From: Marsupella aquatica
Lineage: Eukaryota > Plantae > Marchantiophyta
Direction of reading: 5' to 3'
DNA length: 64,000 nt
Assembly: GCA_973895155.1 (NCBI GenBank)
Contig: OZ316891.1
Coordinates: 29,742,331-29,806,330 of the forward strand
The notes beneath the pieces were generated by a model. The model was not told the origin of the DNA. It did no database searches and saw only the letters and a program-made list of their open reading frames with translations. A program made the position numbers and the translations under genes. Shown here one piece after another: positions 29,701 through 64,000 of this stretch (within the stretch, counting starts at the first letter, position 1; every line of letters begins with the position of its first letter).

Positions 29701-29986
29701 GTTATGCTTAGGTTCAAAATCTCAGCCATACCCAGGATCTCATGACAAGTCGTGGAATCTCTCACGTAGAACCCCAATTTAAGGAATACTGAAGTATTAG
29801 ATTAATTCCAATTTTATCTAAATATTATAAGTTAATGAATGATCAACCTCTTTAACATTTGGTGGGATAGTCAAAAACTTCAAATGTTTTGTTGCAAGAT
29901 CTTTATAACAATGCATCACTAAATGACATCAAGTACCTCTTGATCCATGCACAAATCCTTAATTAAACTGTCATTTATTGTTTCAA

Positions 29987-30517
29987 TTGTCTATTTAATT
30001 ACTATAGGGTTGAATACAAAAAAGATTGACCACCCTTTACAACAATTAATAGGATTGTTGTATATTACAATGTCTACTGGACATTCATTTGAATGTCAAT
30101 AATATCATGCCTTAATATCACCAAACTAAGGCCCCATTGTCTAACTAATATTATATCTTAAATAAACTAACCAACTAACTAACTTGTCTATTTAATTACT
30201 ATAGGGTTGAATACAAAAAAAGATTGACACGCACCAAGGTGCGTGACCTACAATCATAGTATCACCCTTTAATCAGTTAGTTTCTATTGCTTTGACTCAA
30301 TCAGGCATGGAACCATATAAAATCAGAAATCATTGAAAGTTGAGTTCACTTGAAGGTGTAACTATAATTATTATTTATTAATAGGATTGTTGTATATTAC
30401 AATGTCTACTGGACATTCATTTGAATGTCAATAACATCATGCCTTAATATCACCAAACTAAGGCCCCACTAACTAATATTATATCTTAACTAAACTAAAC
30501 TAACCAACTAACTAACT
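29987..30517. repeat. Local direct duplication (first copy internally deleted) near the left end of the element
   Basis: TGTCTATTTAATTACTATAGGGTTGAATACAAAAAAGATTGAC and TTAATAGGATTGTTGTATATTACAATGTCTACTGGACATTC...AAGGCCCCA each occur twice. Confidence 0.85.
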
Positions 30518-30873
30518 TAGACGATAAGACTTGTCTAAACTTGAGTTCTCTGGCTACTACTATTCTGAGTTGCCTTTTAAACTGTATGCTAAACTACATG
30601 CTTCATTACTGTCTAGGATTTGTCACTTGCTATGCATGTCAAGAGCTCGGGGGTTTCACTTCCACAAAAATGGCATATCACGTGCGACGAAGGATAGGAT
30701 CATTTTATTGGTTGTAAGGGAAGACTTAAGAATTTTTGTAGAAGAACAATAGGGTCTTTTAAATTCAATTTTGAGACTTATAAGAACATTATGGCCTTTT
30801 TAATCCAATTTTTGGAATATTCCAAGAATATTCCAACTTTATAGGGGTTAAAAAATAATTTTTTCCTTACATT

Positions 30874-33800: not shown

Positions 33801-34268
33801 CTTGACTATAGGATCTAGAACATGTATAGTTGCCACTGCAAAAATCAACTTATTCTCATCCACCACCTTTACAGGCATGCCCATCCACAAGGCCTTTGGT
33901 AAAACTATTTCCACACGAGACCGACTCTCATTATGGCGGTTCCCAACAGAATTTTGCTCAACTGGATCTTGATCATCACCAACCTCGCCAAACAAATCCT
34001 CCGATTCCATGGGAGCTTGAAAAAGTTGATTCCTTTCCCATACAAGGTAGCCCCCAATCATGTCCTTCAAAAGTTTGTCATCTCTGCATTGAATAGTCTC
34101 GTCAAAAACTTCCTCCAATAGAAGAAGAACTTTGTCCGCCCCAAGAGTAACATTGTGACAAACCCTGGAAGGATCAAGACTTATCACACGACCTTTTTCA
34201 ACCTGTTTGTCACGGATGCCTATAATAAATTTTCTGCCTTCCCTGATCTAGACTGTCGATGTCACCAT
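30874..34268 (-). pseudogene. Sola-like DDD transposase gene with two N-terminal Tnp1/En-Spm-like beta-barrel repeats; disrupted
   Basis: ORFs 34187-33549, 33527-33162, 33198-32344, 32214-31309 and 31236-30874 join into one gene with an ATG at 34268. Motifs: CCSEHCC, LCVEAWRIIH, HGNAG, FSKCTTC, acidic triad candidates in IHDKMD / LQLDNC..NNKN / VGHTHEDVDGMF. In-frame TAG stops at ~34250 and 33549, plus frameshifts. Confidence 0.8.
32228..32282. repeat. Telomere-like (TTTAGGG/CCCTAAA) tract in a transposase intron
   Basis: AAACCCTAG..ACCCTAAACCCCAA-TTTAGGGTTTAGGGTTT-AAACCCTA, with units in both orientations. Confidence 0.75.
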
Positions 34269-35665
34269 ACTAATTATGATCCTGCACAATAGCGAATATG
34301 ACTATAAGCGTGCTGTCCTGTCACGGCCGTCAACTACCAAAGTAAGGACAAAGTACTGCACGCGACCTGTCGCGTGATGCTTCTTGAGGACTTAGTAGCC
34401 GTATGAACCAATCCATTACGCGACCAGTCGCGTCATGCTTCTTTTGTAACATTCTATTGTGGAACGAGCCCTATACCCGTGCGTTGCAGGGCACAAGGAG
34501 GGCCGGCCCATAAGGAGTCGGGCCAGGGCATTTATGGAGCGGAGGGCGAGAGGAAGGAGCGAGTGCATCGGGACCGAGGGGAGGGCGACGCATCGCTCAA
34601 AAATGTATATCTCGAGGGGGGGTCCATAATGAAGGCACGGGAGTGGGAGGCCCTTGCCAAAGACACGAGGGGGACCCTCAATGACACGACTGACCTCTTC
34701 ACAAGCATTATTAGGGCGTCTCAGATATGGGGAAAAATCTGACCTTATGGGCAGCCCGCAAAGCTGTCGGGCAGACCGAAACTAGGTATACTCGGGCCAA
34801 TATTTGCTGGGGTAGTTAGCAATGAGTTGTGTCGCGGCGCTATGCGTGAAGTGGTTTTCCTACTGGGGGACTCAAATATCGGGCCGAGAGAGTTTTGCAG
34901 TTGCCCGAGTTAGGTTCGGGTGGACACGGCCTGAAAATGTACGGGAGACCCTTAGGCTAGCCCATGACCGATTCAACATTATAGATTCCTATTTCCCATA
35001 GGGTCTAAAACCTAGAAGCTAGAAGCCTAGGCCCAAACTCTAGCTCGTAGTTGGCGATTCATAAGTAAGATACGATTGCGATTTAATAATAAGATACACC
35101 ACTGAGTGGGCAGTACCACTGAGTGGACACTGGACAGTCAGTATCTATTGAGGACCCCATAATCATTCCAGTACATCACTAACAATCAGTACGTTCCGAG
35201 CCAGTCGCCGACAGTGAAATTAAAGCCATAATTATACGACAATTCAGCTTGCAGCCAATTCTATTCCACGCCAGTCTAACGATTACTCTCTTCGAGAAAC
35301 CACCCTAGATTCCGCCCTACATTTGTGCCATTTAATTGACACACGGTTATTCTGTTGTAGAACCGTCCTACATGCCGCGCTACATCCGTGCCACTGAATT
35401 GATAGACGATTACTCTCTTCTAGAAACCAACCTAGATTCCGCCCTACATTCATGCCACTTAATTGACAATATCCACAGTAGTGAAGAGTAAAGACTATAA
35501 AGCATTGAGATGATGTCTAAACTGCCCATTCCCCATGCATTGAACATTCTGGTTACTGGATAATGTAATCGCACATCAGCTCTCCCTTCCTTTGCTCCCA
35601 ATAGAAGAGTCTTTCCTCTCACTCCAAATTCTTAGTCTCGGTCCGCATCTCTTGCTTGAAGGGCG

Positions 35666-36169
35666 ATGGCTAAGCCAGTGAGCTTGAAGAATGTGGATGT
35701 TCCAACAGACAATGTAGAAGATTCTATCTATCGTGGTACTCCTTTCAGATTGTGTAAGCGATGTGATATCATGTTTGCGGTGACTACATCCAGAGGTCAA
35801 ATGTTTTGTGAGAGAACCCACTGTTCGCCACATTTGACGACGGAAGATAAGATGGAGAGCAATCCAACCGTGTCGAATCCAAAGATGGAATCCGGGGAAA
35901 AGTTGAAGGCCAAAGTATGCATCGATTCTATTACGGTCAAGGCAGCAGCTGATGATAAGAAAGTCAAGAAGGAGGCCAAGAACGTGGACGCAACTACAAA
36001 AAGGAAATTAGAGATGAAGGAATATTGTGAACTATATTACAGAAGGAGGAAGCCGAGCAACGCACGCAAATTTATGGACCATAGAGCTTGGGCAAAGGAG
36101 GCATTCTTGGATTCTGGCGAATCCATGCCAGACACGGATGAGTGGATGCCATCTTCGTGGAATGATTGA
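35666..36169 (+). CDS. Small basic protein with a treble-clef-like Zn finger (element cargo)
   Basis: Intact 167-aa ATG ORF containing CKRCDIMF...FCERTHC (CxxC...CxxxC) and a K/R-rich C-terminal half. Confidence 0.55.
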   Translation: MAKPVSLKNVDVPTDNVEDSIYRGTPFRLCKRCDIMFAVTTSRGQMFCERTHCSPHLTTEDKMESNPTVSNPKMESGEKLKAKVCIDSITVKAAADDKKVKKEAKNVDATTKRKLEMKEYCELYYRRRKPSNARKFMDHRAWAKEAFLDSGESMPDTDEWMPSSWND

Positions 36170-37849
36170 CTCGATGTAAGGCTAGAGCTTATTGAATTTG
36201 AGTAAAACGTAGTCCAAGTTAGAACTCGATAGGGATACGATGTAGCTAGATTTCATCCCGTAGGGATATATTTTAACGGAATCAGTTCAATGGAAATGGA
36301 TTCCACATTCGAAGTCCTTCGGGATGGATGTAGTCTTTTTTGGTAATCGACGAAAAAATATTCCAGAATGGTCATTTATGTTTTCTGGCTTATACTATAA
36401 TTCAAGTCATTTGAATGAAGTGAATTCTTGTTGAAATGATTCTCAAGATGGCTTCTTAGTCAACAACAAGAACCGCTAAGACTGGAGTGATTCGATCCTA
36501 TATCTAAATTACCTTAGAAGACAACAATAATTTTGACGCGATTGTACGCGTGCACTATGAACAAGACTGGGTATTAAATCCGCGAATAGTGCTCCATGTA
36601 TGTATGTTTGGAATGCCTTGCATGTTTACCGGCGTCTGGAATAATTAGGTTCATCTGAATGAAGTCAGTTTAGACCACCTAGGGCTGAGAGTCTTTTCCT
36701 AATGGTCAAAATAACAGAGGCTTGAGTGATACTATACTACATCTATATTACCTTAGAATACAGCAAGAAGAATGACGCGACTGTGCGCGTGGTCAGTCAA
36801 CCAGAATGGGGAACGTGCCCGTCATCCCCAAACAAGGCGACCAGGGGTGGTAAACGAACAGATATTGGCTTCGATTCTTGAGAGAATCTGACCTGAGGTC
36901 AGTTATGTCACGCGACTGTGCGCGTGGAGTTCTACTCAATGACTAAGTAAAGTAACTAATAAATAGAGATTAATCGGATCTCAGAAATAGAGCGCGATTA
37001 GATTTAAGAGTGGAGAGTATATCCTCTCCTCTAAAACAATCACGCGACAAGGCGCGTGATGAAATGAAGACTTTAGATATAAAAGTAAATTATGGCTAAT
37101 TCGCTATTGTATGTTAAAATACCCATATGTACGGCCATGTAAAATTGGAAGACACACTAGTTTGGACTGCGAAGATTTCATTTTGATCGACGACTACCAT
37201 AGTACTTCATAGAAGGAATTCATGGTGATAGATTTCTTCCGGATTGGACTTGATTGAGGAGTGATTGAATTCGACCAGAACTTCATGGAGTCAAATCATG
37301 AATTGAATGCGTGATTGAAGGCAATTAATCTCGTCATTGATTGCAGAATTGCGTACTTACAAGATGTTCAATTGCATGTTGTCTCCGTCAGCAATTATGG
37401 CGACAATCCTCCTCCCAGCCAAGCCTCCTGCTCCTCGCAAACCTTCCGTTGGACTCCAATTGCCTTGAGTATCTTGATTGTATCCAGATCTATCGCAACT
37501 GCATAATTACCGGTTTAAATTTCAAATTGGCGATCCAACTAAAATCTCGTTGAGTACGGCCAATCAAGAAGATTCCGGTAATCTTCTTTTCACGATTGCC
37601 TACTTCGTATTGATTGAGTCTTAGGAAGGTGTACGGAGATCATCCGGAACCTTCCGATCCATAGGATGCGTAGGCTTATTAGGGTTACGTTAAAATGGTT
37701 ACCCTAATTCGCATTACTTAGTGACGGCGCACACGGTCTCGAGTTCATTGTTGTTCACTTCTTGTCAATTCACTCATTCATTGTTGTTGTCTCCCGTGCC
37801 AGCTCCATAGGACCTTCACGCGCCTGCTCTCGTCCGCCCCATTTCGTTT

Positions 37850-37960
37850 GTTGCAGCTCGTTCATTGTAGTCAGGAGCTCAATCGTTCATTCATTGTGGT
37901 CCGGAGCTCGATCATTCATTGTGGTCAGGAGCTCTTGTTCGTTGTGGTCCGGAGGTGGTT
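37850..37960 (+). repeat. Short tandem repeat (~25-bp unit) in non-coding part of the element
   Basis: TTC(A/G)TTGT(A/G)GTC(A/C)GGAG x4, followed by CAGCTC-rich sequence to ~38215. Confidence 0.7.
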
Positions 37961-39306
37961 GGCATGCTTCAGCTCGATCTCACATCTCGTATTCACTTCT
38001 TGTTTGCTCGATTGAAGGGCTTCTGGTTTGTTTGAAGGGCTTCTTGGGTTTGTCACAGCTTGTTTGTTTGGAGCTCTTAAGTTGCGAGAGTTTCAGCTCG
38101 TGTTCAGCTCGTACCAGCTCGTACCAGCGAATTTCAGCTTGTTTCAGCAGCTCAAACTCATTTTTGGCAGCCTGTCTCAGATCATTTCATTCATCAGGTT
38201 TGTTTCAGCTCTTTCATTGATCAGGTTTATGCTTTAATTCATTCTCAGCATTCTACCGACAACGTATGATTCTATCTCTAGAAGTGGCTGTTTACCTGGA
38301 GATAGTGAGTTCCTTGCCGCCTTGATTGCAATTTCAATGGAAGAATTGTTTACCTCGAGATATTTACTTAGCTTCTATCTTTAATACATCAATCTGGGAT
38401 TTTAATCTTATACGTTCTTTCCGGAATGCCGCAGCAAGGTCTTTAAGTGGAAATTGATTTCTATCTCTCAGATGATTACATCGATCAATTACATCGATTA
38501 ATTTGTCAAAATTCAGGTACTTTTCCTGAGATTATTCTACAGATCATTCAGCTGAGTTTGATGCAGTTTGTGTCTGTAAACTCAAATATGACCAAATCAT
38601 ACAAGCTAACTCAAATATAACTTGATCATATTAACGATGTCATACAACTTCCAAGTTGTGCAATTGACTCATCTTATTATATTACACTGAATCATATCAA
38701 TCGACTCAACAACCAGCAGCATCCTGTACAATATAATAATTTTAACTGACCGATGCTCTGTGAATCATGCTAAACTAAATTCTTTGCAATATGAAAACTT
38801 CTGACATATGATTGTTTCATAATCATAGCGCGCTAACATCTGAATAGTAATATTGGAAACTTCATGAATGTTCTGATTGCTTATAATTATGAATGAATGC
38901 CATTGATCGCCTGTTATCTAAATGAATACACTCAATACTGGTCTACCTGAATCCAGTTAATAAATATATCTTCGCATGAATGTATCTCACTTTAATAATT
39001 CCATGTTCGCATTTGGATTTATCAGTCCGTACAGGTATAAGTCGGTATTGTGACTACTCCTGGTTTGTTGTTCGATCAATTTTGGATTATCTTTTGACGC
39101 GACCAGTCGCGTGTGAGGTAGATCTCCACACGGGAGGTTTAGAGATTTCTGAGGATTAGGTGACGTGACCAGTCGCGTGTTAGGTGCAGTTAACGCGACC
39201 AGTCGCGTGCCCGTTAGACTTCTTATAGTTAGTTCTGTGACCGAAGGAAATGTTTTGATTATTTGACGCGACCAGTCGCGTCACAAATCAAAATAGAGGT
39301 TCATGG

Positions 39307-39821
39307 ATGGGTGAACCTGGTCTTGAGAGCTTCAAATATCTCTGCCCCATATTTGACGTTCTCGACAGAACCCAAGATGGCCTAATGGAGGGATATTCTA
39401 TCTTTGTTGAGACACTATTACCTGGACTTCCAGATAACATTGTCGTGGAATTGATTTGGCCTCAAATCAAGGATTCCTTTAATTGCTTGGCTAATGTAGG
39501 AAATTTCTCAACAAAGGAATTGAATGAGTTGATTGGACTGTCTTCGGTGTGTCGTAGATGGGTATAATCAAGTTGAGTTTATTAGATTTAGATTTCCCAA
39601 GACATACTGCTAAATCGATCCCAAATGAGTCTCTCTCATCGATTGTGCAAAGTTTCTTTAAGAAATACCCAAGAATTAAATTCCTGGGGTCGATGTCCAA
39701 CGTTCTTAGAGAACTATTTACGAAGCCCTACGATGCTCTTCACCCAGTTGAAAAATGGCAGTTTACAATAAGATGCCACAAAGTTGGGTACCTTGAGGAT
39801 GACCTGAATGCTAGTTGTTAA
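39307..39821 (+). pseudogene. F-box-like cargo gene copy 1 (frameshifted)
   Basis: LLPGLPDNIVVELIWPQI...LSSVCRRW is a plant F-box-type motif with an insertion. Continues in ORF 39558-39821. Confidence 0.6.
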
Positions 39822-39899
39822 CATACACGACCGGGCGCGTGAGACAACTTCTAACAATGTTTTGTGATTTGATAACAATAGGATGAGCAAACTCCTCAA

Positions 39900-40420
39900 T
39901 CTGGCTCAAGATTTTCTTTCATCTCATGAAAGGGAACAGAAAGATATCTGGGACATGCTCGATAAAACCTCCTCTAGTCTCATAGGAGGATTACAAATGT
40001 TTTGGTCATTTCGAGAATATGGCCAATATTATACGAATACTTTATTTCAATTCAAGGATTGAGTAGATATCGACTTACCGACAATGATTTGGTTGTGGCT
40101 CGGGTCCGAGACTTTATCCGGCTTGGAGCGTGTAGCAAGAAGTAGGACTTTCTAGTTACGAATACCAAGTTATGGGCTAGCCTAAAACAAGCAAATCGGA
40201 TGGTCGATAACGCAAATGATGCACTTTCCTACATACCCGGGACTGAGGATTTGGAATTTTACTCAGTGTGTCGAGTTATTCGATAGGATATCTCTCTGCT
40301 CCCAGAAATACCCCATCTTGGGACTACTAGTTGCGGCGATGTGTTATTATTTAGTGATAGATATGACTGTTTAGATGAAGAAGAGCGACTTCTTCTAGTC
40401 GAAAGGTTTGGTACATTTAC
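39900..40420 (+). pseudogene. F-box-like cargo gene copy 2 (degraded)
   Basis: Fragments SLIGGL..ISRIWPIL, LGACSKK*DFLVTNTKLWASL and CLDEEERLLLVERF align by eye with copy 3. Confidence 0.5.
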
Positions 40421-41013
40421 TCAGAATCTTGGTGGTTCCAGCTCCTGATGGACAGGTTCCCTTTCTTAATCTTTTCCATATGATGTTGCAGTCCTTTGAC
40501 ATGAATCGGAAATCTCATCGTCAAATGATGATGGATCAAATTGCAAGTGCAAAGGTTATAAATCGGAACATGATATGGAGTGATACAGAAGCACTGATAC
40601 CTGGCCTCCTGGACGATATTGTCGAGAAATATATTTGGCCTTTAGTCAAAGTGTTTTTCCATTCGCTTGGGAATTTGTCAGATAATGCGATTAAAAAAGG
40701 GGTCATGGACTTGATCGCCATTCGAACAGTCAGTAAGAAGTGGCATCACATAGTTACTTATAGTAGTACTTGGGCGACGGTCATCTTGGTAGCAAACGAT
40801 TTCACCGATAGACCTAGATATGAATCGCTTGGAAGGCATTTCACTGCACGGAATGTAGCATTCAGATATAGAGAATTTATCAAAATTCTTCCACCTCTAG
40901 ACATTCTTGGTGGTTTTGATGGGACCGAGCTTGACACGTTTAGAAACCATTGGATTTGGTTAGATGACGAGGAGCGAAAGGATTGGGTCAAGAAATACGT
41001 TCCTAAAATGTAA
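40408..41013 (+). CDS. F-box-like cargo gene copy 3 (true start uncertain)
   Basis: LIPGLLDDIVEKYIWPLV...IRTVSKKWHHIVTYSSTW F-box motif; open frame to the stop at 41013. Confidence 0.65.
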   Translation: MVHLLRILVVPAPDGQVPFLNLFHMMLQSFDMNRKSHRQMMMDQIASAKVINRNMIWSDTEALIPGLLDDIVEKYIWPLVKVFFHSLGNLSDNAIKKGVMDLIAIRTVSKKWHHIVTYSSTWATVILVANDFTDRPRYESLGRHFTARNVAFRYREFIKILPPLDILGGFDGTELDTFRNHWIWLDDEERKDWVKKYVPKM

Positions 41014-44000
41014 TTTGGGGCGACACGACCATGCGTGTGCTTCAATTTTTCAGTCGCATAGTTATTTATAGATATGGATTTTGACGAGTTGACCTCAAGG
41101 AAAGAAACCATTCGGTTTGATTAGTTCCTAAAATGTATTTCGACGCGACGCGACCATGCGCGTATTGTCATTCTGAAATAAAGGTTTCACTTTCAATATT
41201 TGTATTTTTCAGAATGGATCCAATGGTGACATCAAAGCGGAAAAGAGACTCCTCTAAATCGGTTGCTCAAAAGAAAGCCAAGACCAGAGTGATGCCCACG
41301 CTTATCAAGGAAAATCTATCAGGGAGAGAACAACGGAGACAAAGACACTCCATCTCTTTGACTCGACAGAGATAACCGAACTTGGAATAATTGTTCAGAA
41401 TGGGAGTCTCCGCCTTGTGGTTGCAAAAAATGAGAAGGCTACAATTTTGGAGAATTCAAAAATTCTTGGGTGCTTCTTTGAGAAGAACTTGAGTGTTCAA
41501 GAGTGTATTGAGGGATTGGTTCTGTTAGTCAGCGACGATAACCAAGATGACAACATCAGCATATGTTTGGATCGCACGCAATATGTGACCTTCAATCAGA
41601 GGAGAATCGATGATCTTCTAGGTGCTAGGCACACCTTGGAAAAGGTTACTAGTGTGGGATACCCCTCCAATCCATGGGGATTAACTGGTGATTTGATTTG
41701 TCAATATATTATTGACGTTCTTGAGTTCAAGAGAATTTCTTTCAAGAAGGAATTTCGCTTGGGAAAGCCCATTCCAGTGACCGAGGCTGAAATATACACG
41801 GCAGAGAATCTTCCAAAAGTTATCACAGCACAGAATGTCGGTGCTCTGTTCGATAGTTTCCTCAAGGAATATAGTGGTGTGAACATATTTAACAGCAAGT
41901 CCTTTTTTATTGAGACTTCGCGTTGTCATCTTGCACCGGATCACATCAAATGCCGAGAGTGGAATCAGGATTACATTGAGAGGCTGAAGAATTCATTCCT
42001 TTCTCATTTGGCTATAAAGTTTGAGAAGAGATGCTGCTTCTTAGTCCCTGTAAAGTGGGTTCAGTCCGAAGCCGACGAAATTGTCGACTACAATGGAACG
42101 GCCTATGAATCGACACCAACGGAGGAGGACATTAAGAGAAGTCATTTTTGGATACTTGGAGGCCAACACACAATAATGGCCTACAAATTGCTGAAAGACG
42201 ACGCTAATGTCAGCCAAGATGTTCGAGATGCATGCGGGATAGTAGAAGCTGTCATGTTTTGGGCAACGCTCAATAACAAGAATAATATCCATTTGATGGG
42301 ACTGTCGAGGGCCCTAAACCACTATCATCAAACATACATGGAAGAGGGGCAATTTCTCACCATCGTCAGACAGTGTCGTAATATATGGAACTCATTTGGT
42401 CGGCCTGGATCACATTCTCGTCATCCTAATTGGAAGGTATGGACCAAACCCTTGTCGATTATATTCTTACAGATTTATGCATTACATTGTCTTACAGATA
42501 TATGCATTACATTTTCTTACAGATTTATGAAGTTAATTTTGTCACGCGACTGGGCGCGTCAATCTTAGAATTGTTATGCTCCTTTGTTATCTCATTTTCC
42601 AGGTATTTATGAGGGCTACAAGTTTAGTCTGCCCATGGGTGCAAATGGGCAAAAACGAGGTAATGAAATTTGGAGAGTTGGCTCCGTTCCTCTTTACCAT
42701 GGAGGACGAAACATTCAAGAAGTGGATGGAAGTTTATGAACTTTCAAGGAAAGGAGAGCTTGTTATATACAATGGAATTTTGCAGAAGAAGATCCTCAAG
42801 GTTGCGAAGAATCCAAATGCTTTTTATCTTCTTAAGAAGTCATTCCGTTCTTGTCAAGGGTGCTCGGACAAAGTTCTTCGAAAGGCAACGGAATACATGT
42901 TGAGTGGGAAATTGTCTATTCCCAAAAACAGAAGCATCAAAGTGAAATCCGCGAAGGCTAGGAAGTCCTCTCAAGCCCTAGTGGTGTCAACAAGCGGCAT
43001 GAGTTTGGAGGAATTTTGTGTAGAGAAGAAGACAAAAGTTGAGTTTGAGATTCTTTTGTTGAGTAAACTCAACGGGGATACAGGCACCCGGGCTGAGCTG
43101 AAAAGTCTTACCGACGCTGCCCAGAAATTGCGGGTCCAAGAAATGATTGATCGCTTTAAGCTCAACAAGATGGTACTGAAGCAGTTGAGAGATGCGCTGA
43201 GTGGTTATCTGAAGAAGTGCTTAAATATAAATATTATTAATGATAATTTGTTGAAAGAGATCGACCCGATATTCTACAGGTTGGTGGAAGGAATACAAAA
43301 ATCAGTTGATAGTCAAGGAAACCAACTAGTGCGGCCAGTCGGTGAGAGGCTGAAATTGCGATCCCTGCAGGATATACAAAATGTTGGGTTTGTAGACTGT
43401 ATCATACGTGAAGACAAGAACCTTGCAAGCTTGATTTATTTTGATTCCTCATCAATGGGAGAGATGCGTCCGTCAAATTGCGCATTCTATGAGGGGTTAT
43501 TCCGTGCTACTAGCAAAATAGGGGCTAAACCACACCATGTGGTTATTATTGTGGCCACTCTCATTGAGTCTTATTCAATCAAACGGGAATTAGTGAAATA
43601 CACACAGTACATTGCTGTGGATAGCAATTATATTCAGAAGCGGCAAAAGGAAAGGAAGCTTATTGTAACATACGCCTTTCACAGCTCGGCCTTCAGCACA
43701 ATGGGCGACTCGGATGTCCTTGAGCTCCAATTGCTGTCCAAATATCGGATTGAGAAAATAACTGATTTTGAAGAGAGCGGCGAGATATCGACGACTTCGC
43801 CAGAAAAGATGCCTCCATTCTTTGAAAATATTGTTAGTCAATTCGTCCAATCTGGGGAATGGGCTATATGCTTCGGCGAAGGAAAGAATTTGATCCAGTG
43901 CCTAATGGTAAGTTCTTAGATTTACATTGTGGGGTTTAGCTTTTCAGATGATTTGGATTTCGAACTATCAATTTATATTGGTCGAACTAATTTTTGTTTC

Positions 44001-45264
44001 TTATTTTACAGGATGCTGGATCCAATGTAAAATATTACTGCCCTGTAACAACGCACGGGGAATTGTCTTGTTTCCTACAACACACGACTACGACGAATGA
44101 TACAACGCTATCGTTGATTGACCCAGTCCGGGCTAGTATAGAAAAATGTATAGATAAACTAATGAAGTACCGTCCATCCGTATCTGCTCTCAAGGCTGAT
44201 GTTTTGGAAGTCCTCCAAGAACAACATATTCCTGATCATATTTGTTATCAATTGTTGCAAGAGTATTTCCTCTCGGAAGGTTCAGATAGAATGTACATTT
44301 GGCCAACAGAGTACCCTCGTGGGCCAATCCAAGGTAAATTTCTATCAAACCCTAAACAATTGCTTCTTCTGCATAACAAAACATTGTCAAGCTTCACGCG
44401 AACATGCGCGTGAACATTGTTTTTACTGTGTATTATATTTATTTATATATTTTATTTTTGTCAGATGAAGTCCAAAGTGGCTTTACTGGTGAGGACAAAG
44501 TGAACGACGGGCATGGGGACATCAATGACGACCAAGATCCGGATTGGATGACCGAGCCGCAGAACAATGTCGATGATGATGACCAAATCGAAAAAGAGAG
44601 TGATGGTGAGGAAGCCGATGAAATTGATGAAAATCAGCAAGTTGATAAATTTGACGAGGGGACTGACGAGGATACAGCAGGGTCCGACGAAGACATGGAG
44701 GATGTGGATGATGAGGCCAGACAGGAGGAGGCGGCCCGGCTAGAAGCGGTGAGACAAGAGGAGGCCCGAGAAGAAGCGCTTAGACTAGAAGCGTCCCGAC
44801 AAGAGACTCAAAAGGTAGAAGCCAAGAAGCAGAAGGCGACAGCTTGAAAGGCAGCTTCCGCAAAGAGGAAGTCAAGAGCTGAAGCGGAGAGAGTTGAGAC
44901 AGCCAGACTTCAGGCAGAGGCATTGGCAGAGGTAGCGAGAGTCCAGGCCGCGGTTGAAGCAGAGAGAGAAGTGGCCAACAGGGTGGATGAGGATAGGAGG
45001 CAGGGCCAGACAAGAGAGGAGGCCGAGAGCGAGGAGGAGGAACCGACAAGACAGGAGGCCGAGAGCGGGGAGAAGGATCCGACAATACAGGAGGCTGAGA
45101 GCGGGGAGGAGGAACCGACAAGACAGGAGGTCAAGAGCGAGGAGGAGGAACCCACAAGAAAGGAGGCCAAGAGCAAGGAGGAGGAGAGAGAAGAGTCGCA
45201 GAATATGAAGGCAGAGAGGGAGGAGGCGGAGAGGGCGGAAGCGAAGAGGGCGCAGGCAAGGATG

Positions 45265-45775
45265 GAGGCCAAAAAGAAGGAGGCCGAAAAGAAGGAGGTC
45301 GAAAAGAAAGAGGCCGAAAAAAAGAAGGCGGCCGAGAAGAAGAAGGTGGCCGAGAAGAAGAAGAAGGCCGAGAAGAAGAAGGCGGCCGAAAAGAAAAAGG
45401 AGGCTGAGAAGACGAAGGAGAAGACGAAGGAGGCTGAGAAGAAGGAGGCCGAGAAGGAGGCCGAGAAGAAGGAGCAGGCCGAGAAGAAGGAGGCTGAGAA
45501 GAAAGAGCAGGTTGAGAAGAAGGAGGCCGAGAAGAAGGAGCAGGCCGAGAAGAAGGAGGCTGAGAAGAAAGAGCAGGCTGAGAAGAAAGAGGCTGAGAAG
45601 AAGGAGGCTGAGAAGGCTGAGAAGAAGGAGGCAGAGAAGAAAGAGGCTGAGAAGGCAGAGAAGAGGGTTGAGAAGAAAGAGGTTGAGAAGAAGGAAGCCG
45701 AGAAGAAGGAGGAGCAGGCGGAGAAGGAGGAACAGGCGGAGAAGGAGGAGGCAAAGAAGGAGGCCGAGAAGGCCA
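45265..45775 (+). repeat. Coding low-complexity repeat (AEKKE)n
   Basis: GAGAAGAAGGAGGC(C/T) reiterated, giving an EKKEAEKKEQ single-alpha-helix or coiled-coil-like tract. Confidence 0.9.
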
Positions 45776-46632
45776 GGGACCTTTCGCTTCAGGCAAACCG
45801 ATTACCTAAAATAAAGCTCAATTTGAGGAAGCCTTCGTCGCTGTCCGCTGGGATTAAGAAGAAAATATTAGACTATTTTCTGCGTCCAGACTTTGAGTTT
45901 GACGATCCACCATTAGGTACAGTCTCCTTGGAGGATTGGAATAAATATTCACTCGAGCTGCTACGTGTCCAGGCAGTTTTGGATGTGCATTACTGGAAGG
46001 GTGTTCTGATTACAGAGGAGACGAGTGCAAGTGAATCGAGACTAGAGATGATTACCAATAATGTACGATTTTTTGAGAATCGAGTGGAAGAACTGTGAAC
46101 GGAGTTGGCTCCCAAATTCGCTCAAACTGTGAAGAGACTAAAGTCTGACTTCACGCGACCGGGTTCGTGGTCTTGGCCACGATATAACCCACAGACGACA
46201 CACTCGGAAGCCCAACTGGAGACTGGCGAAGCAGATATTGTGGAACTTGATTTGTCAGACTCACAGATGGTCGAATACCTAAATAAACTACCACAACCAT
46301 TCGAAGGTCTTCCCGCCTCATCTCTCCAACCTTCACAAACCGGTCTGGTGGATCGACCACTGCGCTCCCGGGGAGCTCCTAGTGATATAGCTGCGAAGGA
46401 GGCACCCAAGAAATCCGGTGCAAAAAGGCCGGATCCACCCAATCCAAAGGTCATTCGCAAGCTATAAGTTGAAAGGATTTTGTTTCTAGTCTAGCAGCCA
46501 GTATTTTCTTTGTCGTTAGGGTTTGGACCTGTCATTATATTTTATTATTGATTTATTGTTGTTTCTGTTTACTCGTAGGCTACAACCTTAGTACGTTATT
46601 TGAAGGCGTATTGAATTCTCTGTTTTTTGCAG

Positions 46633-47424
46633 TTTTTTGAAAATTTGGGTAGTCGAATAGATCAATGCCTCGATCCTTCTAGGGATATGGAAGAGGTATT
46701 GACCAAGTTTTTACACCACTCGATCAAGAGGAAACATATGATGTGTCTGAGACCGCGCGAGTTGCTTACCGATGATATAATTAATGCTTATTTGAGCTTT
46801 CTCGAGCTGATTCTCAATAGAGTTGGAAAATCAGAGGTTGTAAAATTCTTCCAAACACACCATTTCAAGCTTCTCTCCATGGATCCTACCGTTTTCGATG
46901 AGGACCGAGCATCTTGGACAGTTGACTTTCCGTTAAGAATCACTGAATACGACAAACTAGTCTTTCCAGTTCACATTGCTGGGAAAGAACATTGGTCATT
47001 GGCAGTTGTCTATCCGAAGGAGAAACGATTCGAGTACCTGGATTCTCTAGTTCAAAATCGACAAAATCCTAAGGTGCTCGATGTCGTTGGGCAGTATTAC
47101 GTCGACAAAATTCTATGGAGAAATGGAGTCAAGGTGGATATATCAGGTTGGGAACGGATATATCGGAACGATATTCCACACCAAAGTGATGGGTACAGTT
47201 GTGGTGTTTTTATGTTGAAATACGCCAAGTGTTTGTGCCAAGGCAGCGAAATTAGTTTCTCTGCTGCAGACATTGCAAAATTCTGTAGGGAAGTTGTCTT
47301 GTCGTTATATGACATGGACTTCCAAAAGCCGGCGTCCGGAGACAACCATGGTACCGGGATACGTGCTGCTATGATTGACATTGCCGGCAGAATTCAATTG
47401 TTGAACGACCATCTTCTTGGGCAG
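46633..47424 (+). CDS. Ulp1/C48 SUMO-protease domain exon
   Basis: LTDDIINAYL, FFQTHHF, VFPVHI..EHWSL, YLDS and Q.DGYSCGVF. The His-Asp-Cys triad and oxyanion Gln are intact. Confidence 0.9.
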
Positions 47425-48720
47425 GTATTATACTTCATTTCAGTCTCTCTTTATAGTCATGCGACCGTTCGCATTATAAAATTTATTTTTCATTTTCTAA
47501 TGTTTTACAGAAACCTAGCCCGAAACCCCCTGATCAAGTAAAGAAGGCACCAGTAAAGAAGGCACCAGTAAGGAAAGGCACCAATCCTGAAGTCCGCTGA
47601 TTTCCCGGAGGCGGGAAAGACCTTGGTAGTACGGGCTCCAAATCCTTCAGCACAGAAATCACAGGTACAGACGACGCCTAATCCATCGGCGCAAAGGCCA
47701 CCGGTACAGAAAGGTCCGGTAATTCGAATGAAGAGACTTGTAATTTTTGACCTGAATCGGGTACTTATCTGGTCAGAGCAAAGCAGCCCTGGGATGCCCA
47801 TTCGGTCAAGGGGTGTCAAACACATGCACAAGGTTTTGTATCCAAGGCCTGACTTAATGACATTTCTTGTGAAGGTGTCAGAACTTTACGACATTGCCAT
47901 CTGGTCGTATATGTTGAAACTAAATATTCTATCATGTGTAAGGTTGATTCTCCAACCCGAGGTTTTGAGCCGTATTAAATTTATCTGGGGACAAGAATCA
48001 ACATGACCTATTGGTAAGAGTAATAATGACATTCCCCTATTTGTCAAATGTCCCGACATTGCCACCGATATTAAGAATTACGACAAGGAGAATGTGATTA
48101 TTATGGATGACGCTGCTTATAAGACGAGCTTAAATAGCTTCTACTCGTCTATGTATCCCGACGCATATTTTGGGCTGGAAGATGACACACATTTTCAAAA
48201 AAAACTATATCCGAATCTGTGCGATATGTTCAATCCAAAGTTGAAATTCCATGAGCGACTTCGGGGATATGGTATTCCAGAGTTTTCTCGAGACAATCTT
48301 CAGAAGGATTATATTGATAAGGCGAATCTTTGGAGGAAAAATGTGACCATTCGTACTAAGGGTAATCCTGACCATTTACAAGAGTTTGATGATTTCATGA
48401 GAATATTATCAAATAGGAAAGATCGTGAAATGGAAGCCAAAGAAAAGTAAACATTTATTTATTTATAATTCTTATTTATACTTTTGACTTTGTGTTGTGA
48501 GTGACGCGCCCGGTCGTGTCGCTGTGTGGATTTATTTATATTGTTATGTGAGTATTGTGTTGGGTGGCGTGGTTGAATTGATTGCATAATATGAGAATTG
48601 AACTATGGATACATTAGTCACGCGACCGTGCGCGTGTAAACATTTGTCGTTTACTTATATTTTTAAAATTTGTGTGTTATGTTTAGGCGTTAATATGAGA
48701 ATCGAATTGTTGATTTACAG

Positions 48721-49428
48721 GAGACTAAGTGGAGCAGATCGCGTCAACTTCTAGTTTTAGGAGTGGAAAACTTTCTATGCTATATTAAGAAATATACTCC
48801 TGAGCTCAAGTGGACTACAAAAATTCGTATCGGATCTCTATGTGTCGTTCCGAGGCCATATCTTCATGATTTTCTAAAATTATGTTATGATAATTTTGAT
48901 GTGATGGTTTGGTCTACCCTCGAGGATAAACTGGTTTATCAGATACTTTCAGAAATGTCGTCGATCATGGACCTGTCGCAGCTGAGATATGTTTTCACCT
49001 AGGATCATTGCTGGCATCTTGGTTATGTGAAGAAATGTTATAAGAGAGTTGTCTTCAAATCTATGGACAGACTACGTGATATGTTTCAAGATTATCGACC
49101 AGAGAATATAATCCAGATTGATGCCTGTCCATCCCATACATGCCAGACAGGTGTATGTGGATTGTTGTTTACAAAGACGTTTCAAGGATCCTTGGATGAT
49201 GTCTTTTTGAGGGATACTCTCATTCCACATTTACTGAAGCTATCAGATTCCGGGCTTTGTCTTGCATTCGCTAACAAGTTGGATTATCCCATCTGGTCGA
49301 TTAGAAATCTACATCTAGATTGGACTTTGAACGAGGATATATGGGAGCATCTGTACATGCAGAGACATGCTGATCAAGTTCTTATGAAGTACTTCAACAT
49401 ACGTCACTTATCAAAGGCCAGAGTGTAG
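48721..49428 (+). pseudogene. FCP1/NIF-like HAD domain copy 2 (exon starting at a splice acceptor; in-frame TAG at 49000)
   Basis: tttacag|GAG; QLLVLGVENFL..PRPYLHDFL..FDVMVWS..FKSMD..NIIQID..DDVFL. Confidence 0.7.
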
Positions 49429-49521
49429 AGGATATGTTATTTGTCTGTAAATCCATGACGCGACTATTCGCGTGGCAACATCCACACGGGCTCATTTATC
49501 TTGTATTGTGTTTCTCTATAG

Positions 49522-50211
49522 GAGATACATTGTAGCAGAGAAACTCAGCTCGTAGTTTTAGATGTGGAGCATCTACTCTGTTACACTGCACCGCATTCCC
49601 GACTGATGACGGTCTCAACTGGAATTCGTATTGGGAATGTATACGTTTTTCCAAGGCCTTATCTTCACGAATTTGTGAGATTCTATTTTGAGAATTTTGA
49701 CGTAGGGATCTGGTCATCTCTTAAGAAGAACCTTTTAGATCAGATTTTAGCATCTATTTTTATTGCGATGGAAATGGCCTCATTTAAGTATATTTGGGAT
49801 GAGTCTCATTGTTACTTATGCGATGGGGCGACCTCAAATAAACGGATATTTTTGAAGTGTTTTGATAAAGTGGAAAGTTATACGAAGGCGTATCTGCAGA
49901 AAAATATAATGCTTATCGAATCCGATGCATTTCATGCTTGTTTAGATCCTGTTTTTGGATCATTATTTCCGCCCAAATATTTTGGGTTGGTCGACGACTG
50001 TTTCCTGATTAACGTGTTGATTTTGTATCTTAGCAAGCTCGCGAAATCTTCTGAGCCGCTTCTCGTTGCCAATGGAAGAGGTTATCCTGATTGGTCAGTT
50101 AAATCTCTTTTTAGAGATTATGATTATAATCATACTATATGGGAAGACCCTTTGATTCAGAGGCATGGAGATAGATATCTAGTAGAGCAGTTTAACAGAC
50201 GCCCAGTTTAG
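49522..50211 (+). CDS. FCP1/NIF-like HAD domain copy 3 (exon starting at a splice acceptor)
   Basis: ctatag|GAG; QLVVLDVEHLL..PRPYLHEFV..FDVGIWSS..YIWDESHC..FLK..NIMLIE. Confidence 0.75.
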   Translation, partial: EIHCSRETQLVVLDVEHLLCYTAPHSRLMTVSTGIRIGNVYVFPRPYLHEFVRFYFENFDVGIWSSLKKNLLDQILASIFIAMEMASFKYIWDESHCYLCDGATSNKRIFLKCFDKVESYTKAYLQKNIMLIESDAFHACLDPVFGSLFPPKYFGLVDDCFLINVLILYLSKLAKSSEPLLVANGRGYPDWSVKSLFRDYDYNHTIWEDPLIQRHGDRYLVEQFNRRPV

Positions 50212-53074
50212 GACGCTTCCGAAATAATATTCGGCAGGAGAAACTCCCCATTGGTATTGTCGTGCTAGAAACTATTTGTAATCTCCCTAAACGGGTTATC
50301 ATATATAAAGGATCTCAAAGATTTATTTCTCTATTTTTATTATTCGTTGTCTGTTGGTCCCGTCAAGTTGGATTGCGTCAAATCTTAGTGTTGTTAAAAT
50401 GTGATGTTGCAATCATTTTCAGGGTATCACACGCAGTGACGCGTCATGTTGCCCCCTTTTCTTGTCATTTTTAAGCGTGGTAATCGAAAGCATTAACAAG
50501 CAATTGCTGTCATATTAAAATAATAATATTTAGGTATTTTTGAAATTTCCAAAGTTTGGTTTTCCTTAAATTGGGGTTGTAGGTGGGAATAGAGGTCAGG
50601 ATAGAGGAGTCTATCCTGGCTGCCATTTCTATAAAATATTACTTAGGTTCTAGTGTTGTGAAAATGGAGGCTAGCTACCATTTATTTAGGGATAGGGCCG
50701 AGTCCACCGCTGGGACACTATCCCTCCAAATTTACGTTAGCCCCTATTTTCTCTTTTTAGTTGTTATAGGCTCACTTGACCCTACCATCGGAGATGCTCT
50801 CAGTCTGTACCTCCATTGGCATCTCCTAATGTGGATGCCAATGGACAACAATATTAGAGAGATTAGACAACAAGCTCGACCACAAACCTCCGTTTGCTTC
50901 TCCTAATCTGATGCCCACTCACCACAAAAAACACAGGATTGGAGATGAAGTTGACAAAGGAGATTGATAATCAAATGGGTTGAATCCCCTGGTTGGAATG
51001 CATCAGGGTTGTCTGTCTACTGAAGTGGCTAAATCCTAACCCTTGATTATCTAATAAGCTATTTTGTTATAATTATTAGATTCTGTAATTGGAGAGGGCA
51101 AATTAAGACCCAGGTTCAATTTAGGTTTTCACTTTGTATAATTGTTATCATAAGTTGTTTAGTTCATTGCTTCCACAAAGGTGAGTGTTCAAGGAAAGAT
51201 TCTACTTAAATAAAAAATAACATCTCAGAATTTACACTTTGTGTGGTTTAGGTCTCTCCAAACTGAAGCTCCACCCAATAAAAGATTGGTGTATCAACTA
51301 ACACCTGAAATGCATTGGCATACAAGGGACATAAAGCAATAAGCTATGCCACAAGTAGAGTGTAAACAAAGGTAAATTGCATTTTGAACATTGTAGCTTA
51401 GATCCAATAGCTCAATCTAAACACTAGAATATGCAATCCTACTACATATAGAATGCCAATCTGGCAGGAAGTATTCTTCACGAAACTTGGATTATGGTGG
51501 TGTTTTCTGCCAACCATGAGATGAACTTGCCACTATGCACCTTTTCCATGCCCAACTTGTCACTTTTTTCTGCAACTCACATACTCTGAATTGCAATCTA
51601 GTTGTCAGGTTGTCTTGCCATTTCTTTGCAGTGTCCAAAGGTTTAGCCATCTCATCTATGCTTTGACAACACTTGTGCAGTGCATGTACATGGAGCTAGT
51701 GTCACATCTAACACTATAATAGGCAATCCCGCCCATTTGGTCACTTTCGTCCGTCGTCCCATTATGAATTTGAATATCAGCGGGAATGAAACTGAACCGT
51801 CAGATTAAAGCATCTCTTTTTTTGTATCCATCCGATCGTGAAATGAGACATGCATCAGATTTTGCTCCCTTATGTGCACCCCCGTGCACTCATTATGCCC
51901 CTCCATCCTCACCCGCAGCAAGGACCTCTGCATAGGGCTTCGCGACCCACATTTACATTCCATGCACTTTCTCCCTATGGGACCGGCCCTCCTTGCACAG
52001 TGCAACGCACTGGCATAGGGCTCGTGTCACAATAAAACCTGAAATGCCCGGCCAATATAATGGAAGATACAATATGAAGAATATGATTCATCAAATCCTA
52101 GTAGCATTATACCACTTAACCTGATTCTCAAGTTCTACGTGGTCCTTAAGTTCAACAATTGAATTGGAATGAACAGAAAATTGGCCTGCCAATGCTCCAA
52201 GTGAGTAGAGTGGTCATTTTCATTTCTCTGTGACTTTAATTTTTGCGATCAAAGCTATAGTGTCACCTCAATGGTAATTCAAGGAAACAAGATTGTGCTT
52301 GAACAAGGGTCCCATCTCCAGACCGGCCCAGTTGGTTGGGGTTCCAGAATTTCCGGTAAGAAATGCAGCAGCCAAGCTGGTAAGAGTGTGGAAGATTAAT
52401 GTGCGCCAATGTTGTGAAGGAAGTTATATTGTTTGGGTGGAATTGGTCAAGTTGGGACTGGAGGAGAGGGGCCATTTTCCCAAAGATGCTGGAATAGAGG
52501 CCTTCAGATCACAAGTAAGCAGTGTCAAATTGAAATACACAAAGGATTGGGAGCGATTGCTGATAAATTATTATTGCAGGGAGGGGATTCTGAAGAGTTG
52601 GGTGGTCACTACGGCTTCGAGATTTTGAGGAAATGTGATTGATCTTGGAGGATATCACAATGACAGGGCTTCGTCAGGTTTAATAGAATCTTTTGAAGGT
52701 GTGAGCAAAAGTCCTAAGCCAATGCCAGTTAGTGAAAGATGGGGAGACATAGAGGAGGCAGCCATTGCTACGAAGGGGCGGCAAGGGACTGATCACTAAA
52801 AATGTTAGCCCTTCTTCCGGCTGCATTTTTGGTTTTCTAAGGTAGTGAACGAGTAAACATCCGCATGTCAGATCTTGCACCTAAAAGTGTGAGAAAACTG
52901 GCTTCGTCAGTAAGCTCCAAGTACCTGCTTGCACAGACCTTAGCAGTGGCGTATTTCTAGATTTTGGGAACTCTCGAAAGCTATCAGTGTGAATGCTATT
53001 TGAGGATTGGGAGTAAATTTTGTTGAATGTATGAAGGACACAAAGGCCAAAGTAGAAGCTGTCATTAAGGCGAC

Positions 53075-59500: not shown

Positions 59501-60709
59501 TGGTGGACCTCACTACTCCTCAATCCAGTGTGCCAAGTTGTTTTCCACAAGCCAAATTCTATCGGCGCAACCCAGATACAGAGGACGCAAGCAAGTAAAA
59601 AAGGTACTGTCTTGTATGGTGGTAAAACACTCAATTTCCAATTAATTCAATAATCACTGAAAATAGAGTTTTGACCACAACCTCTATCATAAAATCTTCG
59701 TAAACAAATAGAGTTTTTCAAGCAAAAGAGAGACATGAGAGGTACAATCATATGACTGGGTCCGTGCAATCTGTCATTGATCCTCTGACTCCCAGGAAAT
59801 GTTTAATTACCATGAACTGCAATTTGGCATATTTAGAACATTCAAAGAGTGGTGGCTGTTCTTGATCAAGCCAATGGAGTTTAGAAGAGTACCTTTGTTA
59901 CAATTTTCTTGCTTTGTTCACACCACCTTGAATGCCCATTCCTTTGAATGTTAGAGAAGACAAAAAAAAAGTTTTGCTAAAGAATCTATGTTGTTTCCCT
60001 TCATTTTGTCCCCATCCCTGGTTTTGGGTATGCACTTCACTTTGAGTTTGTCTTCATCTAGAGTTACAATCTACTTAGAGGCTTCACTCTACACCATAGG
60101 CCTTAAGAATAGCTTCAGTTTGCCAATTATTAGTAAGATTGCTTTCTCAGCAACACTGGAGACGTTTATGGTGTCAAATAATAAAAGAGTATGAGAGAAA
60201 TTACATCGAGAGGCTTCCCACATTCCCCATATGCCTTGCATATATTTTTAATGTTTTCCATCATTCTGGTCTTTGTGGCATTCTCTTAGACTTCAGGGAG
60301 ATCTTGAGTACTTTGTTTCATATAACAACTTCGATTCAAAACATAATTTTCTTGGCTCACATGGGCTGTGTCTCAATACTCTCTGGACATGCAGGTGGCA
60401 TTGTTGAGGCATGGGAGAAACCCAGTCATTGCCAATGTTGGTGTTGGAAGCAATGCAGAGGTAGCAAGGATTTTCAACTCTATGACCACGGACTATACTG
60501 TCAATACAAGCGATGACAATTGGAATAGTGTTCGGGGGCAAGTCTTGGATTACTACAACAACAAGACTAGGCAAATATGGGTGGAGTTTAGGAGAACAAA
60601 TTTTGGACGGCCGTGGCTCTTTGCCTCTTTTCTGGCCGCTGTTGCATTGTTAGTTTTGACTTTTCTTCAGACTTTGTTTGCAATATTGGCCTATAAATAC
60701 ACATTTTAG
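56582..60709 (+). CDS. DUF247 (UPF0481) family protein; exons 56582-57764, 59028-59215, 60395-60709
   Basis: PICRV..LR, FVPQHLFVGPY, MDAIFL, DLLKVENQIP, HLLH, SASQLKKAGINF, LYLPRI..RNLLAFE, SYLVLMDELID.EEDVALL, and a C-terminal TM segment PWLFASFLAAVALLVLTFLQT. Confidence 0.92.
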
Positions 60710-63981: not shown

Positions 63982-64000
63982 AAAAGATTCCACAAATTTG

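What the first reader, a model, noticed from the sequence alone, without database searches (positions are those of the whole stretch)
34359..49474. 18-bp CG-rich palindrome repeated ~20x, in introns and spacers of the cargo arm (parS-like / VANC-target-like)
Seen: perfect copies CACGCGAC-CT-GTCGCGTG (34359) and TGACGCGAC-CA-GTCGCGTCA (39264), plus variants that keep the 6-nt spacing between ACGCG and CGCGT half-sites. Clusters lie upstream of the transposase (34359, 34417), at 36.5-37.1 kb and at 39.1-39.3 kb. Single copies sit just before the first exon of the big gene (41147), in three of its introns (42543, 44395, 47458) and before each FCP1-like exon (48619, 49457). Flanks differ, so this is not a tandem duplication. 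I saw no copies in the host flanks. Inference: selected binding sites for a dimeric element-encoded protein, most plausibly the ParB-like protein. Paired host CAMTA (CGCG-box) sites are an alternative.
Basis: partly seen in the sequence, partly recalled or inferred. Interest (0 to 1): 0.88.

Follow-up and report, generated by a model that had tools for sequence, protein, structure and literature searches.

The report
Palindrome-studded plant transposon cargo arm
A large, decayed piece of likely jumping DNA in a plant carries 14 exact and 8 near copies of one spaced DNA palindrome, nearly all outside its predicted coding parts, which likely are docking sites for a protein the element makes and would help keep its cargo genes from being silenced.

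Summary
ACGCG-N6-CGCGT occurs 14 times, all within 34360-49473, and at no other spacer of 0-10 nt; 500 shuffles give a mean of 0.004. Eight more copies are degenerate, mostly by CpG transitions. By my exon model 21 of 22 sites are non-coding. Outer bases do not co-vary, so these look like DNA half-sites, not hairpins. They mark the cargo arm of a decayed, repeated, probably 21-kb DUF7869 transposon. The arm keeps its CpGs (o/e 0.78-0.93) while the transposase core has lost them (0.28). The big cargo protein has a predicted ParB/Srx fold but lacks the CTP-binding arginine; no DNA-binding domain could be shown. CAMTA fits only 8 of 28 half-sites. Best reading (0.55): sites for an element-encoded dimeric regulator that works like Arabidopsis VANC or TnpA anti-silencing factors. 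The binder is not identified; a host factor remains possible (0.2). Element ends rest on a 69-bp inverted similarity only; no genome was held. New variant of a known kind.

The parts
29760..29828 (+). candidate left terminal inverted repeat
   Evidence: 77% over 69 nt to reverse complement of 50523-50588, E 4.5e-5 within the window; no target-site duplication found
30229..30244 (.). outlying degenerate site ACGCACCAAGGTGCGT, two CpG transitions from the core
   Evidence: 13.7 bits
30874..34247 (-). broken DUF7869 (CMC/CACTA-like, label recalled) transposase in five reading-frame pieces; CpG-depleted
   Evidence: Pfam PF25273 E 3e-36 at 31309-32244 and E 2e-3 at 32344-33213
34360..34433 (.). 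two exact sites (34360, 34418) upstream of the transposase
35666..36169 (+). small Cys-containing ORF, no family hit
36536..37057 (.). cluster of four exact sites (36536, 36775, 36910, 37042)
   Evidence: first two are a local duplication
37818..37833 (.). degenerate site
   Evidence: 17.2 bits
39097..39281 (.). cluster of three exact sites (39097, 39193, 39266) and one degenerate site (39163) that reads consensus in other family copies
39259..41013 (+). two F-box-like ORFs (39259-39821 in two frames; 40399-41013), with a degenerate site at 39825 between them
   Evidence: weak Pfam F-box, E 0.003, below cut-off, for 40399-41013; first ORF by eye only
41023..41163 (.). degenerate site 41023 and exact site 41148 before the big gene
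   Evidence: 41025 reads G in other copies
41215..42436 (+). big gene exon 1 (frameshifted near 41300): PH-like domain plus ParB/Srx-fold domain
   Evidence: model pLDDT 85; KorB and PadC Z 8.2; 34 homologues
42544..42559 (.). exact site in predicted intron 42437-42602
42603..44333 (+). big gene exons 2 and 3, no family assigned; intron 43908-44011 has no site
44396..44411 (.). exact site in predicted intron 44334-44464
44465..46467 (+). acidic and tandem EKKEA-repeat exon with two in-frame stops; holds the only coding-region site (46153, degenerate)
46633..47424 (+). Ulp1-type protease exon
   Evidence: Pfam Peptidase_C48 E 4e-23
47459..47474 (.). degenerate site in predicted intron 47425-47510
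47511..50211 (+). three NIF/FCP1-like phosphatase exons or genes, with sites at 48504 (degenerate), 48620 and 49458 (exact) in the spacers
   Evidence: Pfam NIF E 5e-6, 2e-6, 2e-13
50429..50444 (.). degenerate site near the right end
   Evidence: 13.1 bits
50523..50588 (-). candidate right terminal inverted repeat

Best explanation
The palindrome ACGCG-N6-CGCGT is repeated through the non-coding DNA of the cargo arm of a likely DUF7869 (CACTA-like) transposon and likely is the binding site of a two-fold symmetric protein that the element encodes, which would keep the arm unmethylated and transcribed in the manner of VANC or TnpA. Shown: the sites, their fixed spacing, their polarity, the CpG contrast between cargo arm and transposase, and that the family is repeated. 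Inferred: that transposase and cargo are one element, that the binder is element-encoded, and that it protects from methylation. Within this reading I put the big PH-ParB-fold protein at about 0.45, the transposase or a splice product of it at about 0.35, and another cargo ORF at about 0.2. This copy is dead and has since been deaminated at CG and CHG sites.
For: 14 exact sites at one spacing against 0.004 expected. 0 of 14 exact and 1 of 22 total sites touch predicted coding sequence, which covers 60% of positions (P 3e-6 and 6e-8). Outer positions pair in 6, 5 and 5 of 14 sites against 5.6, 5.5 and 4.4 by shuffling, so no hairpin constraint. All 8 asymmetric exact sites point the same way (sign test 0.008). 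Lone half-sites are scarce in the arm (2 against 7.9, P 0.03). 11 of 13 core changes in the 9 degenerate sites are CpG transitions, and two of them (39166, 41025) read consensus in contigs of all four runs. Contigs end loosely at 39094 and 39126, either side of site 39097, so this site is shared where flanks are not. CpG o/e is 0.78-0.93 in the arm and 0.28 in the transposase core (P 2e-8); NCG codons 84 of 417 against 10 of 205 (P 1e-7). Layout matches VANC targets: non-coding, introns of VANB and VANC, upstream of VANA, same orientation; VANC proteins carry tandem peptide repeats, as the big protein does (PMC5735166 passages).
Against: No binding or methylation data. Host genes in the window keep CpGs as well as the cargo does (NCG 49 of 300, P 0.21 against cargo), so CpG retention may reflect gene-like chromatin or a different origin. 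Within the arm CpG o/e does not fall with distance from a site (0.72-0.88 out to 1.1 kb), and the gradient into the transposase is not significant (0.46 near, 0.28 far, P 0.058). The transposase gene itself is unprotected. None of the 32 contig pieces listed (of 4751) spans 34190-34430, so linkage of transposase and cargo is not shown. No target-site duplication and no CACTA terminus. VANC and TnpA targets are denser and mostly in tandem repeats; these sites are 0.03-2.1 kb apart with mostly unrelated flanks. Some sites arose by local duplication, so the polarity test overstates independence. The exon model is from ORFs and splice dinucleotides only.
Confidence: 0.55

Rival explanations
1. The sites bind a host transcription factor that the element has co-opted, for example a pair of TGA-type bZIP dimers (as-1/ocs geometry), CAMTA, or an unknown dimer, and act as dispersed enhancers.
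For: The fullest copy, TGACGCGA-CCAG-TCGCGTCA, has the 8+4+8 geometry of as-1 (two TGACGTCA variants four bases apart; PMC4677692 passage). 7 of 14 exact sites have one TGACG half. Sites sit 37-86 nt before predicted exons and upstream of genes.
Against: Only 8 of 28 half-sites are TGACG and 1 of 14 sites has both; the invariant bases are the inner CGCG, which as-1 lacks. Only 8 of 28 half-sites fit the CAMTA vCGCGb consensus (PMC10417383 passages) and no site has two. No exact copy in 47.8 kb of the rest of the window, which holds several host genes.
Confidence: 0.2
2. The sites are structural docking points for the transposase or a TnpA-like partner that fold or pair a long element during transposition, with no role against silencing.
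For: Degenerate copies lie 470 nt and 145 nt inside the candidate ends (30229, 50429). The half-site shares TCGC with the Arabidopsis TnpA motif CCVTCGCAAA (preprint 10.64898/2026.08.24.746577, section 4).
Against: All 14 exact sites are internal; TnpA sites cluster at termini. No repeated motif was found in the terminal 700 nt. It does not explain the CpG contrast.
Confidence: 0.1
3. The cargo arm is a separate or more recently acquired element lying beside or inside an older DUF7869 transposon; the palindromes are its own operator sites and CpG retention reflects its origin, not protection.
For: Sharp compositional contrast at about 34.2 kb. An abundant repeat lies at 34450-35100. No listed contig bridges the junction. 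An unrelated phage family uses the same 16-mer six times between genes, so the word suits dimeric regulators generally.
Against: Inverted similarity flanks both parts. In run X1, 84-93% alike contigs over the transposase start and the cargo have similar high depth (598, 492, 459 against 39-56 for others; the tool warns that depth is not copy number). Cargo homologues occur in a liverwort and a lycophyte, so the cargo is old in plants.
Confidence: 0.1
4. The palindromes act as RNA hairpins in introns and untranslated regions.
For: Intronic placement and a common polarity relative to transcription.
Against: No co-variation of outer pairs; the inner pair is broken in 8 of 14 sites while spacing never changes; no Rfam match in 29000-52500; clusters also lie upstream of the oppositely transcribed transposase.
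Confidence: 0.05

Closest known systems
VANDAL/VANC sequence-specific anti-silencing, Arabidopsis (PMC5735166 and PMC10398659, passages read)
   Same: Family motif in non-coding regions, in introns of accessory genes and upstream of the transposase, in one orientation; accessory protein with tandem peptide repeats; Ulp1 protease as cargo (VANB as Ulp1 is recalled).
   Different: VANDALs are Mutator-like; this transposase is DUF7869. VANC motifs are 8-9-bp non-palindromic words in tandem repeats; here a gapped palindrome, dispersed, mostly without tandem context. No VANC-type domain was detected. Binding and demethylation are untested here.
Spm/CACTA TnpA regulators (bioRxiv 10.64898/2026.08.24.746577; abstract, sections 4, 6, 21, 33 and first part of the discussion read)
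   Same: Likely the same broad transposase group (recalled); family-specific motif; the TnpA-Spm1 motif shares TCGC with the half-site.
   Different: TnpA motifs cluster at termini and hypomethylation stays there; here sites are internal and the CpG-rich zone covers 16 kb. That paper finds TnpA-like proteins only in flowering plants; named cargo homologues here are from a liverwort and a lycophyte.
Bacterial ParB-parS, Noc-NBS and KorB-operator systems (structures matched; mechanism recalled)
   Same: ParB/Srx fold in the cargo protein; 16-bp palindromic sites dispersed along a mobile element, as KorB operators are.
   Different: GxxR arginine replaced by T/S; an N-terminal PH-like domain; no helix-turn-helix shown; eukaryotic intron-containing gene; no ParA detected.
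as-1/ocs element bound by TGA bZIP factors (PMC4677692, passages)
   Same: 8+4+8 geometry with outer TGACG in the fullest copies.
   Different: Most half-sites are not TGACG; inner CGCG is invariant.

Membership tests
VANDAL/VANC | Mutator-like transposase | tested here: not met
   Pfam gives DUF7869, no MULE domain
VANDAL/VANC | VANC-family protein encoded by the element | tested here: inconclusive
   No Pfam family on the unassigned cargo ORFs; no direct comparison with a VANC sequence was possible
VANDAL/VANC | Motif in non-coding regions, introns and upstream of the transposase, in one orientation | tested here: met
   21 of 22 non-coding by my exon model; 8 of 8 asymmetric sites co-oriented
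VANDAL/VANC | Motifs accumulate within tandem repeats | tested here: not met
   No site lies in a TRF array; only two site pairs share flanks
VANDAL/VANC | Protein binds the motif and removes methylation in trans | not testable with these tools
   CpG contrast is indirect
Spm/CACTA with TnpA | CMC-type DDE transposase | tested here: inconclusive
   DUF7869 hit E 3e-36; its assignment to CMC is recalled, and a literature search for DUF7869 found nothing
Spm/CACTA with TnpA | CACTA termini with target-site duplication | tested here: not met
   Ends read TCTCACGTAG / TCCCACCTAC; no duplication at six trial boundaries; copy is decayed
Spm/CACTA with TnpA | Motif clusters at the termini | tested here: not met
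   All 14 exact sites are internal; terminal word scan empty
Spm/CACTA with TnpA | Tandem helix-turn-helix DNA-binding domain | not tested
ParB-parS | ParB/Srx N-terminal fold | tested here: met
   KorB Z 8.2, rmsd 2.9, 93 aligned; PadC Z 8.2, rmsd 3.0, 98 aligned; ParB chains top Foldseek, E 5e-3
ParB-parS | GxxR CTP-binding arginine (motif recalled) | tested here: not met
   G[QM]H[TS] in 15 of 15 rows that cover it; 12 of 27 rows do not cover it or are out of frame
ParB-parS | Helix-turn-helix that reads the palindrome | tested here: inconclusive
   Exon 2 model pLDDT 34 from a 3-sequence alignment; fold search uninformative
ParB-parS | Nucleotide-dependent loading and spreading | not testable with these tools
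   needs biochemistry
CAMTA CGCG box | vCGCGb consensus at each half-site | tested here: not met
   8 of 28 half-sites, 0 of 14 sites with both
as-1/ocs | Two 8-bp units four bases apart | tested here: met
   geometry identical
as-1/ocs | TGACG in both units | tested here: not met
   1 of 14 sites

The most novel reading that the evidence does not exclude
A eukaryotic transposon has repurposed a bacterial-type ParB fold as a self-marking clamp: the PH-ParB protein loads at the parS-like palindromes, spreads about a kilobase either way, and brings its SUMO protease and CTD-phosphatase-like domains to keep the whole 16-kb cargo arm free of methylation. This would explain why CpGs are kept evenly where no base is more than 1.1 kb from a site and fade about a kilobase beyond the outermost one.
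Probability: 0.12. Interest if true: 0.92.

Novelty: new variant of a known kind. Interest (0 to 1): 0.62.

Why it matters
Sequence-specific anti-silencing by transposons has been worked out in Arabidopsis (VANC, TnpA) and maize. This would be a case in what is probably a non-seed plant, with a different transposase, a gapped palindrome and an undescribed ParB-fold cargo protein. The site is long and sharply defined, so binding and demethylation can be tested directly with few candidate proteins.

Tried and rejected
No whole genome is held, so no genome-wide motif scan. Related elements were not found in viral, metagenome or prokaryote collections with the ParB-domain alignment or in viral contigs with the transposase. 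A tandem-site pattern found nothing in viral contigs. By eye, the end of exon 2 resembled a degenerate N4/N6 DNA methyltransferase; this failed: hhalign probability 0.5 and 0.1 against six bacterial methyltransferases, and 2.3 for the matching part of P0027, all within the range of 60 shuffles each; Pfam, PADLOC, NCBIfam, PHROGs and PDB searches gave no such hit. ESM Atlas gave only scores of 0.81 or less. Word-based homologue searches for longer exon-1 and shorter exon-2 relatives were empty. A TnpA-like repeat seen by eye in 33549-34247 has no Pfam support. No RNA holder was listed among the runs. Read support for the right half of the element and its ends was not obtained, and a dimer prediction for exon 1 was not obtained; both questions stay open. 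In-frame stops were not used as evidence of deamination, since every stop codon is one transition from a sense codon. Literature searches with no relevant result: no papers; one review, listing only; listings; PMC4738411 passages read, no plant-transposon ParB protein described. No supplements were read; those of the preprint are closed and might bear on TnpA motifs.


Full report
Observation. ACGCG-N6-CGCGT occurs 14 times in the window, all between 34360 and 49473. No other spacer from 0 to 12 is used except one overlapping N11 hit. 500 dinucleotide shuffles of 34301-50500 give a mean of 0.004. A matrix from these 14 finds 8 more sites in the same arm and one at 30229, against 0.1 in shuffled windows. 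It is the only enriched gapped palindrome in the element; the best other word in the transposase arm or right flank occurs 2-3 times, and 5 times in the left flank.

Grammar of the site. The consensus is (T)(C/G)ACGCGAC-NN-(G/T)(T/G)CGCGT(G/C)(A). The five-base halves and the spacer length never vary among the 14 (by definition of the set), while the centre does. The three outer positions pair in 6, 5 and 5 of 14 sites, as shuffling predicts (5.6, 5.5, 4.4), so each half follows its own preference and there is no hairpin constraint. The base after the left ACGCG is A in 14 of 14; its mirror is T in 6, G in 7, A in 1, so all 8 asymmetric sites point the same way (sign test 0.008; local duplications reduce independence). 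Lone half-sites are scarce in the arm (2 against 7.9). Cluster spacings show no common helical phase. Flanks are mostly unrelated; exceptions are 36536/36775 and 41023/41148.

Placement. With exons drawn from ORFs and GT/AG junctions (no RNA data), 0 of 14 exact and 1 of 22 total sites touch coding sequence, which covers 60% of positions. In the gene-dense 41215-50211 stretch (90% coding) 6 of 7 sites are non-coding. Two predicted introns lack a site.

The element. A broken DUF7869 transposase lies on the minus strand at 30874-34247. The plus strand carries a small Cys ORF, F-box-like ORFs, a large spliced gene, a Ulp1 protease exon and three NIF phosphatase-like units. A 69-nt inverted similarity (77%) at 29760-29828 and 50523-50588 would make one 20.8-kb element, but no target-site duplication or CACTA end was found. 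Contigs of four runs from two studies cover all 30 bins of 33800-43800 with many variants, so the sequence is a repeated family (one run may be the window's source). In run X1, contigs 84-93% alike over the transposase start and the cargo have similar high depth, which suggests one recently expanded subfamily carrying both; depth is not copy number, and none of the 32 listed pieces (of 4751) bridges 34190-34430. The right half and the ends have no read support here.

Conservation and decay. Of the 40 best-supported differences listed (of 1352), 27 have T or A in the window where other copies have C or G; 19 of these are in CG or CHG context (P 9e-5 against CHH). This copy has therefore probably been methylated since it died. 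Two of the 40 fall in degenerate sites (39166, 41025) and both restore the consensus. 11 of 13 core changes in the nine degenerate sites are CpG transitions. Loose contig ends at 39094 and 39126 bracket site 39097, so other sequences keep that site with different flanks.

CpG contrast. CpG o/e is 0.78-0.93 across the cargo arm, 0.46 in the first kilobase of the transposase, 0.28 in its core and 0.34-0.37 in the flanks; CHG is also lower in the transposase (0.53-0.64 against 0.94-1.06). At synonymous positions NCG codons are 84 of 417 in cargo, 10 of 205 in transposase and 49 of 300 in four host ORFs. The CpG-rich zone begins about 150 nt before the first exact site and ends at the candidate right end. 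This fits long-term escape of the arm from methylation. It does not prove that the sites cause it: host genes look the same, there is no distance trend inside the arm, and the near-far gradient is not significant (P 0.058).

Candidate binders. Exon 1 of the big gene has 34 homologues among 1.84 billion representatives, the best 40% identical. Of 21 proteins looked up (20 of these homologues plus, in their place as listed, the exon-2 homologue P0039 among the second ten), two carry an organism name, a lycophyte and a liverwort. Its model (pLDDT 85) has a PH-like domain (Z up to 4.8, middling) and a ParB/Srx fold (KorB and PadC, Z 8.2). The ParB arginine motif (recalled) reads G[QM]H[TS] in all 15 rows that cover it, so canonical CTP clamping is doubtful. 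In ParB the site is read by the next domain (recalled); here that region has one close homologue and gave an unusable model. My methyltransferase idea for exon 2 failed its tests. The transposase remains a candidate: a 2026 preprint shows that transposases and TnpA activate cognate copies through family motifs.

Host factors. CAMTA fits 8 of 28 half-sites and never both. The fullest copies have as-1 geometry, but only 1 of 14 sites has TGACG on both sides.

Controls elsewhere. No related element was found in the prokaryotic, viral or metagenome collections. The same 16-mer appears six times between genes of one phage contig and twice in a relative, without homology to the window. I read these as convergent operators.

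Verdict. The feature is real, far beyond chance and under apparent selection for spacing and non-coding position. It most likely works like VANC or TnpA targets (0.55) but is not a member of those systems by the features tested. Searches of the paper library found no description of such an element. Earlier unchecked notes of this scan report similar palindrome-studded transposons in fungi and a dinoflagellate; they are not independent evidence. Novelty: new variant of a known kind. Interest 0.62.

Noticed in passing
L264/L265 (602-3203), L328 (4607-4729), L254/L255: AT-rich phage contigs carry the same ACGCGAC-NN-GTCGCGT between genes: six copies in one contig, two in a relative with a closely similar terminase-like ORF, three in an unrelated contig. 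No homology to the window; likely operators.
   Followed up: partly
window 34452-34517 and 51971-52037: Inverted 67-nt match (84%) with a hairpin resembling a Helitron 3' end (recalled); many contigs end loosely here, so an abundant repeat sits in the divergent promoter region.
   Followed up: partly
window 30807-30940 and 63866-63998: A second, inverted fragment of the transposase 3' region (84%) lies at the window's right edge.
   Followed up: no
window 32234-32262: A short copy of the candidate terminal repeat (76% over 29 nt) lies inside a predicted transposase intron.
   Followed up: no
window 33549-34247 (-): Two weak internal repeats at the transposase start resemble the TnpA/Transposase_23 region by eye; no Pfam hit.
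   Followed up: partly
window 47511-50211: Three NIF/FCP1-like units follow the Ulp1 exon; the canonical DxDxT motif (recalled) is altered in all three, and they may be exons of one 9-kb polyprotein gene.
   Followed up: no
window 44982-45800: Tandem 36-bp and 15-18-bp coding repeats give a long acidic and EKKEA tract.
   Followed up: partly
window 10993-12730: About four copies of a 400-bp repeat, with related fragments near 60076 and 63630.
   Followed up: no
window 22734-24059 (-); 56480-60709 (+): Host genes: an eIF4A-like DEAD-box helicase and a DUF247 gene.
   Followed up: partly
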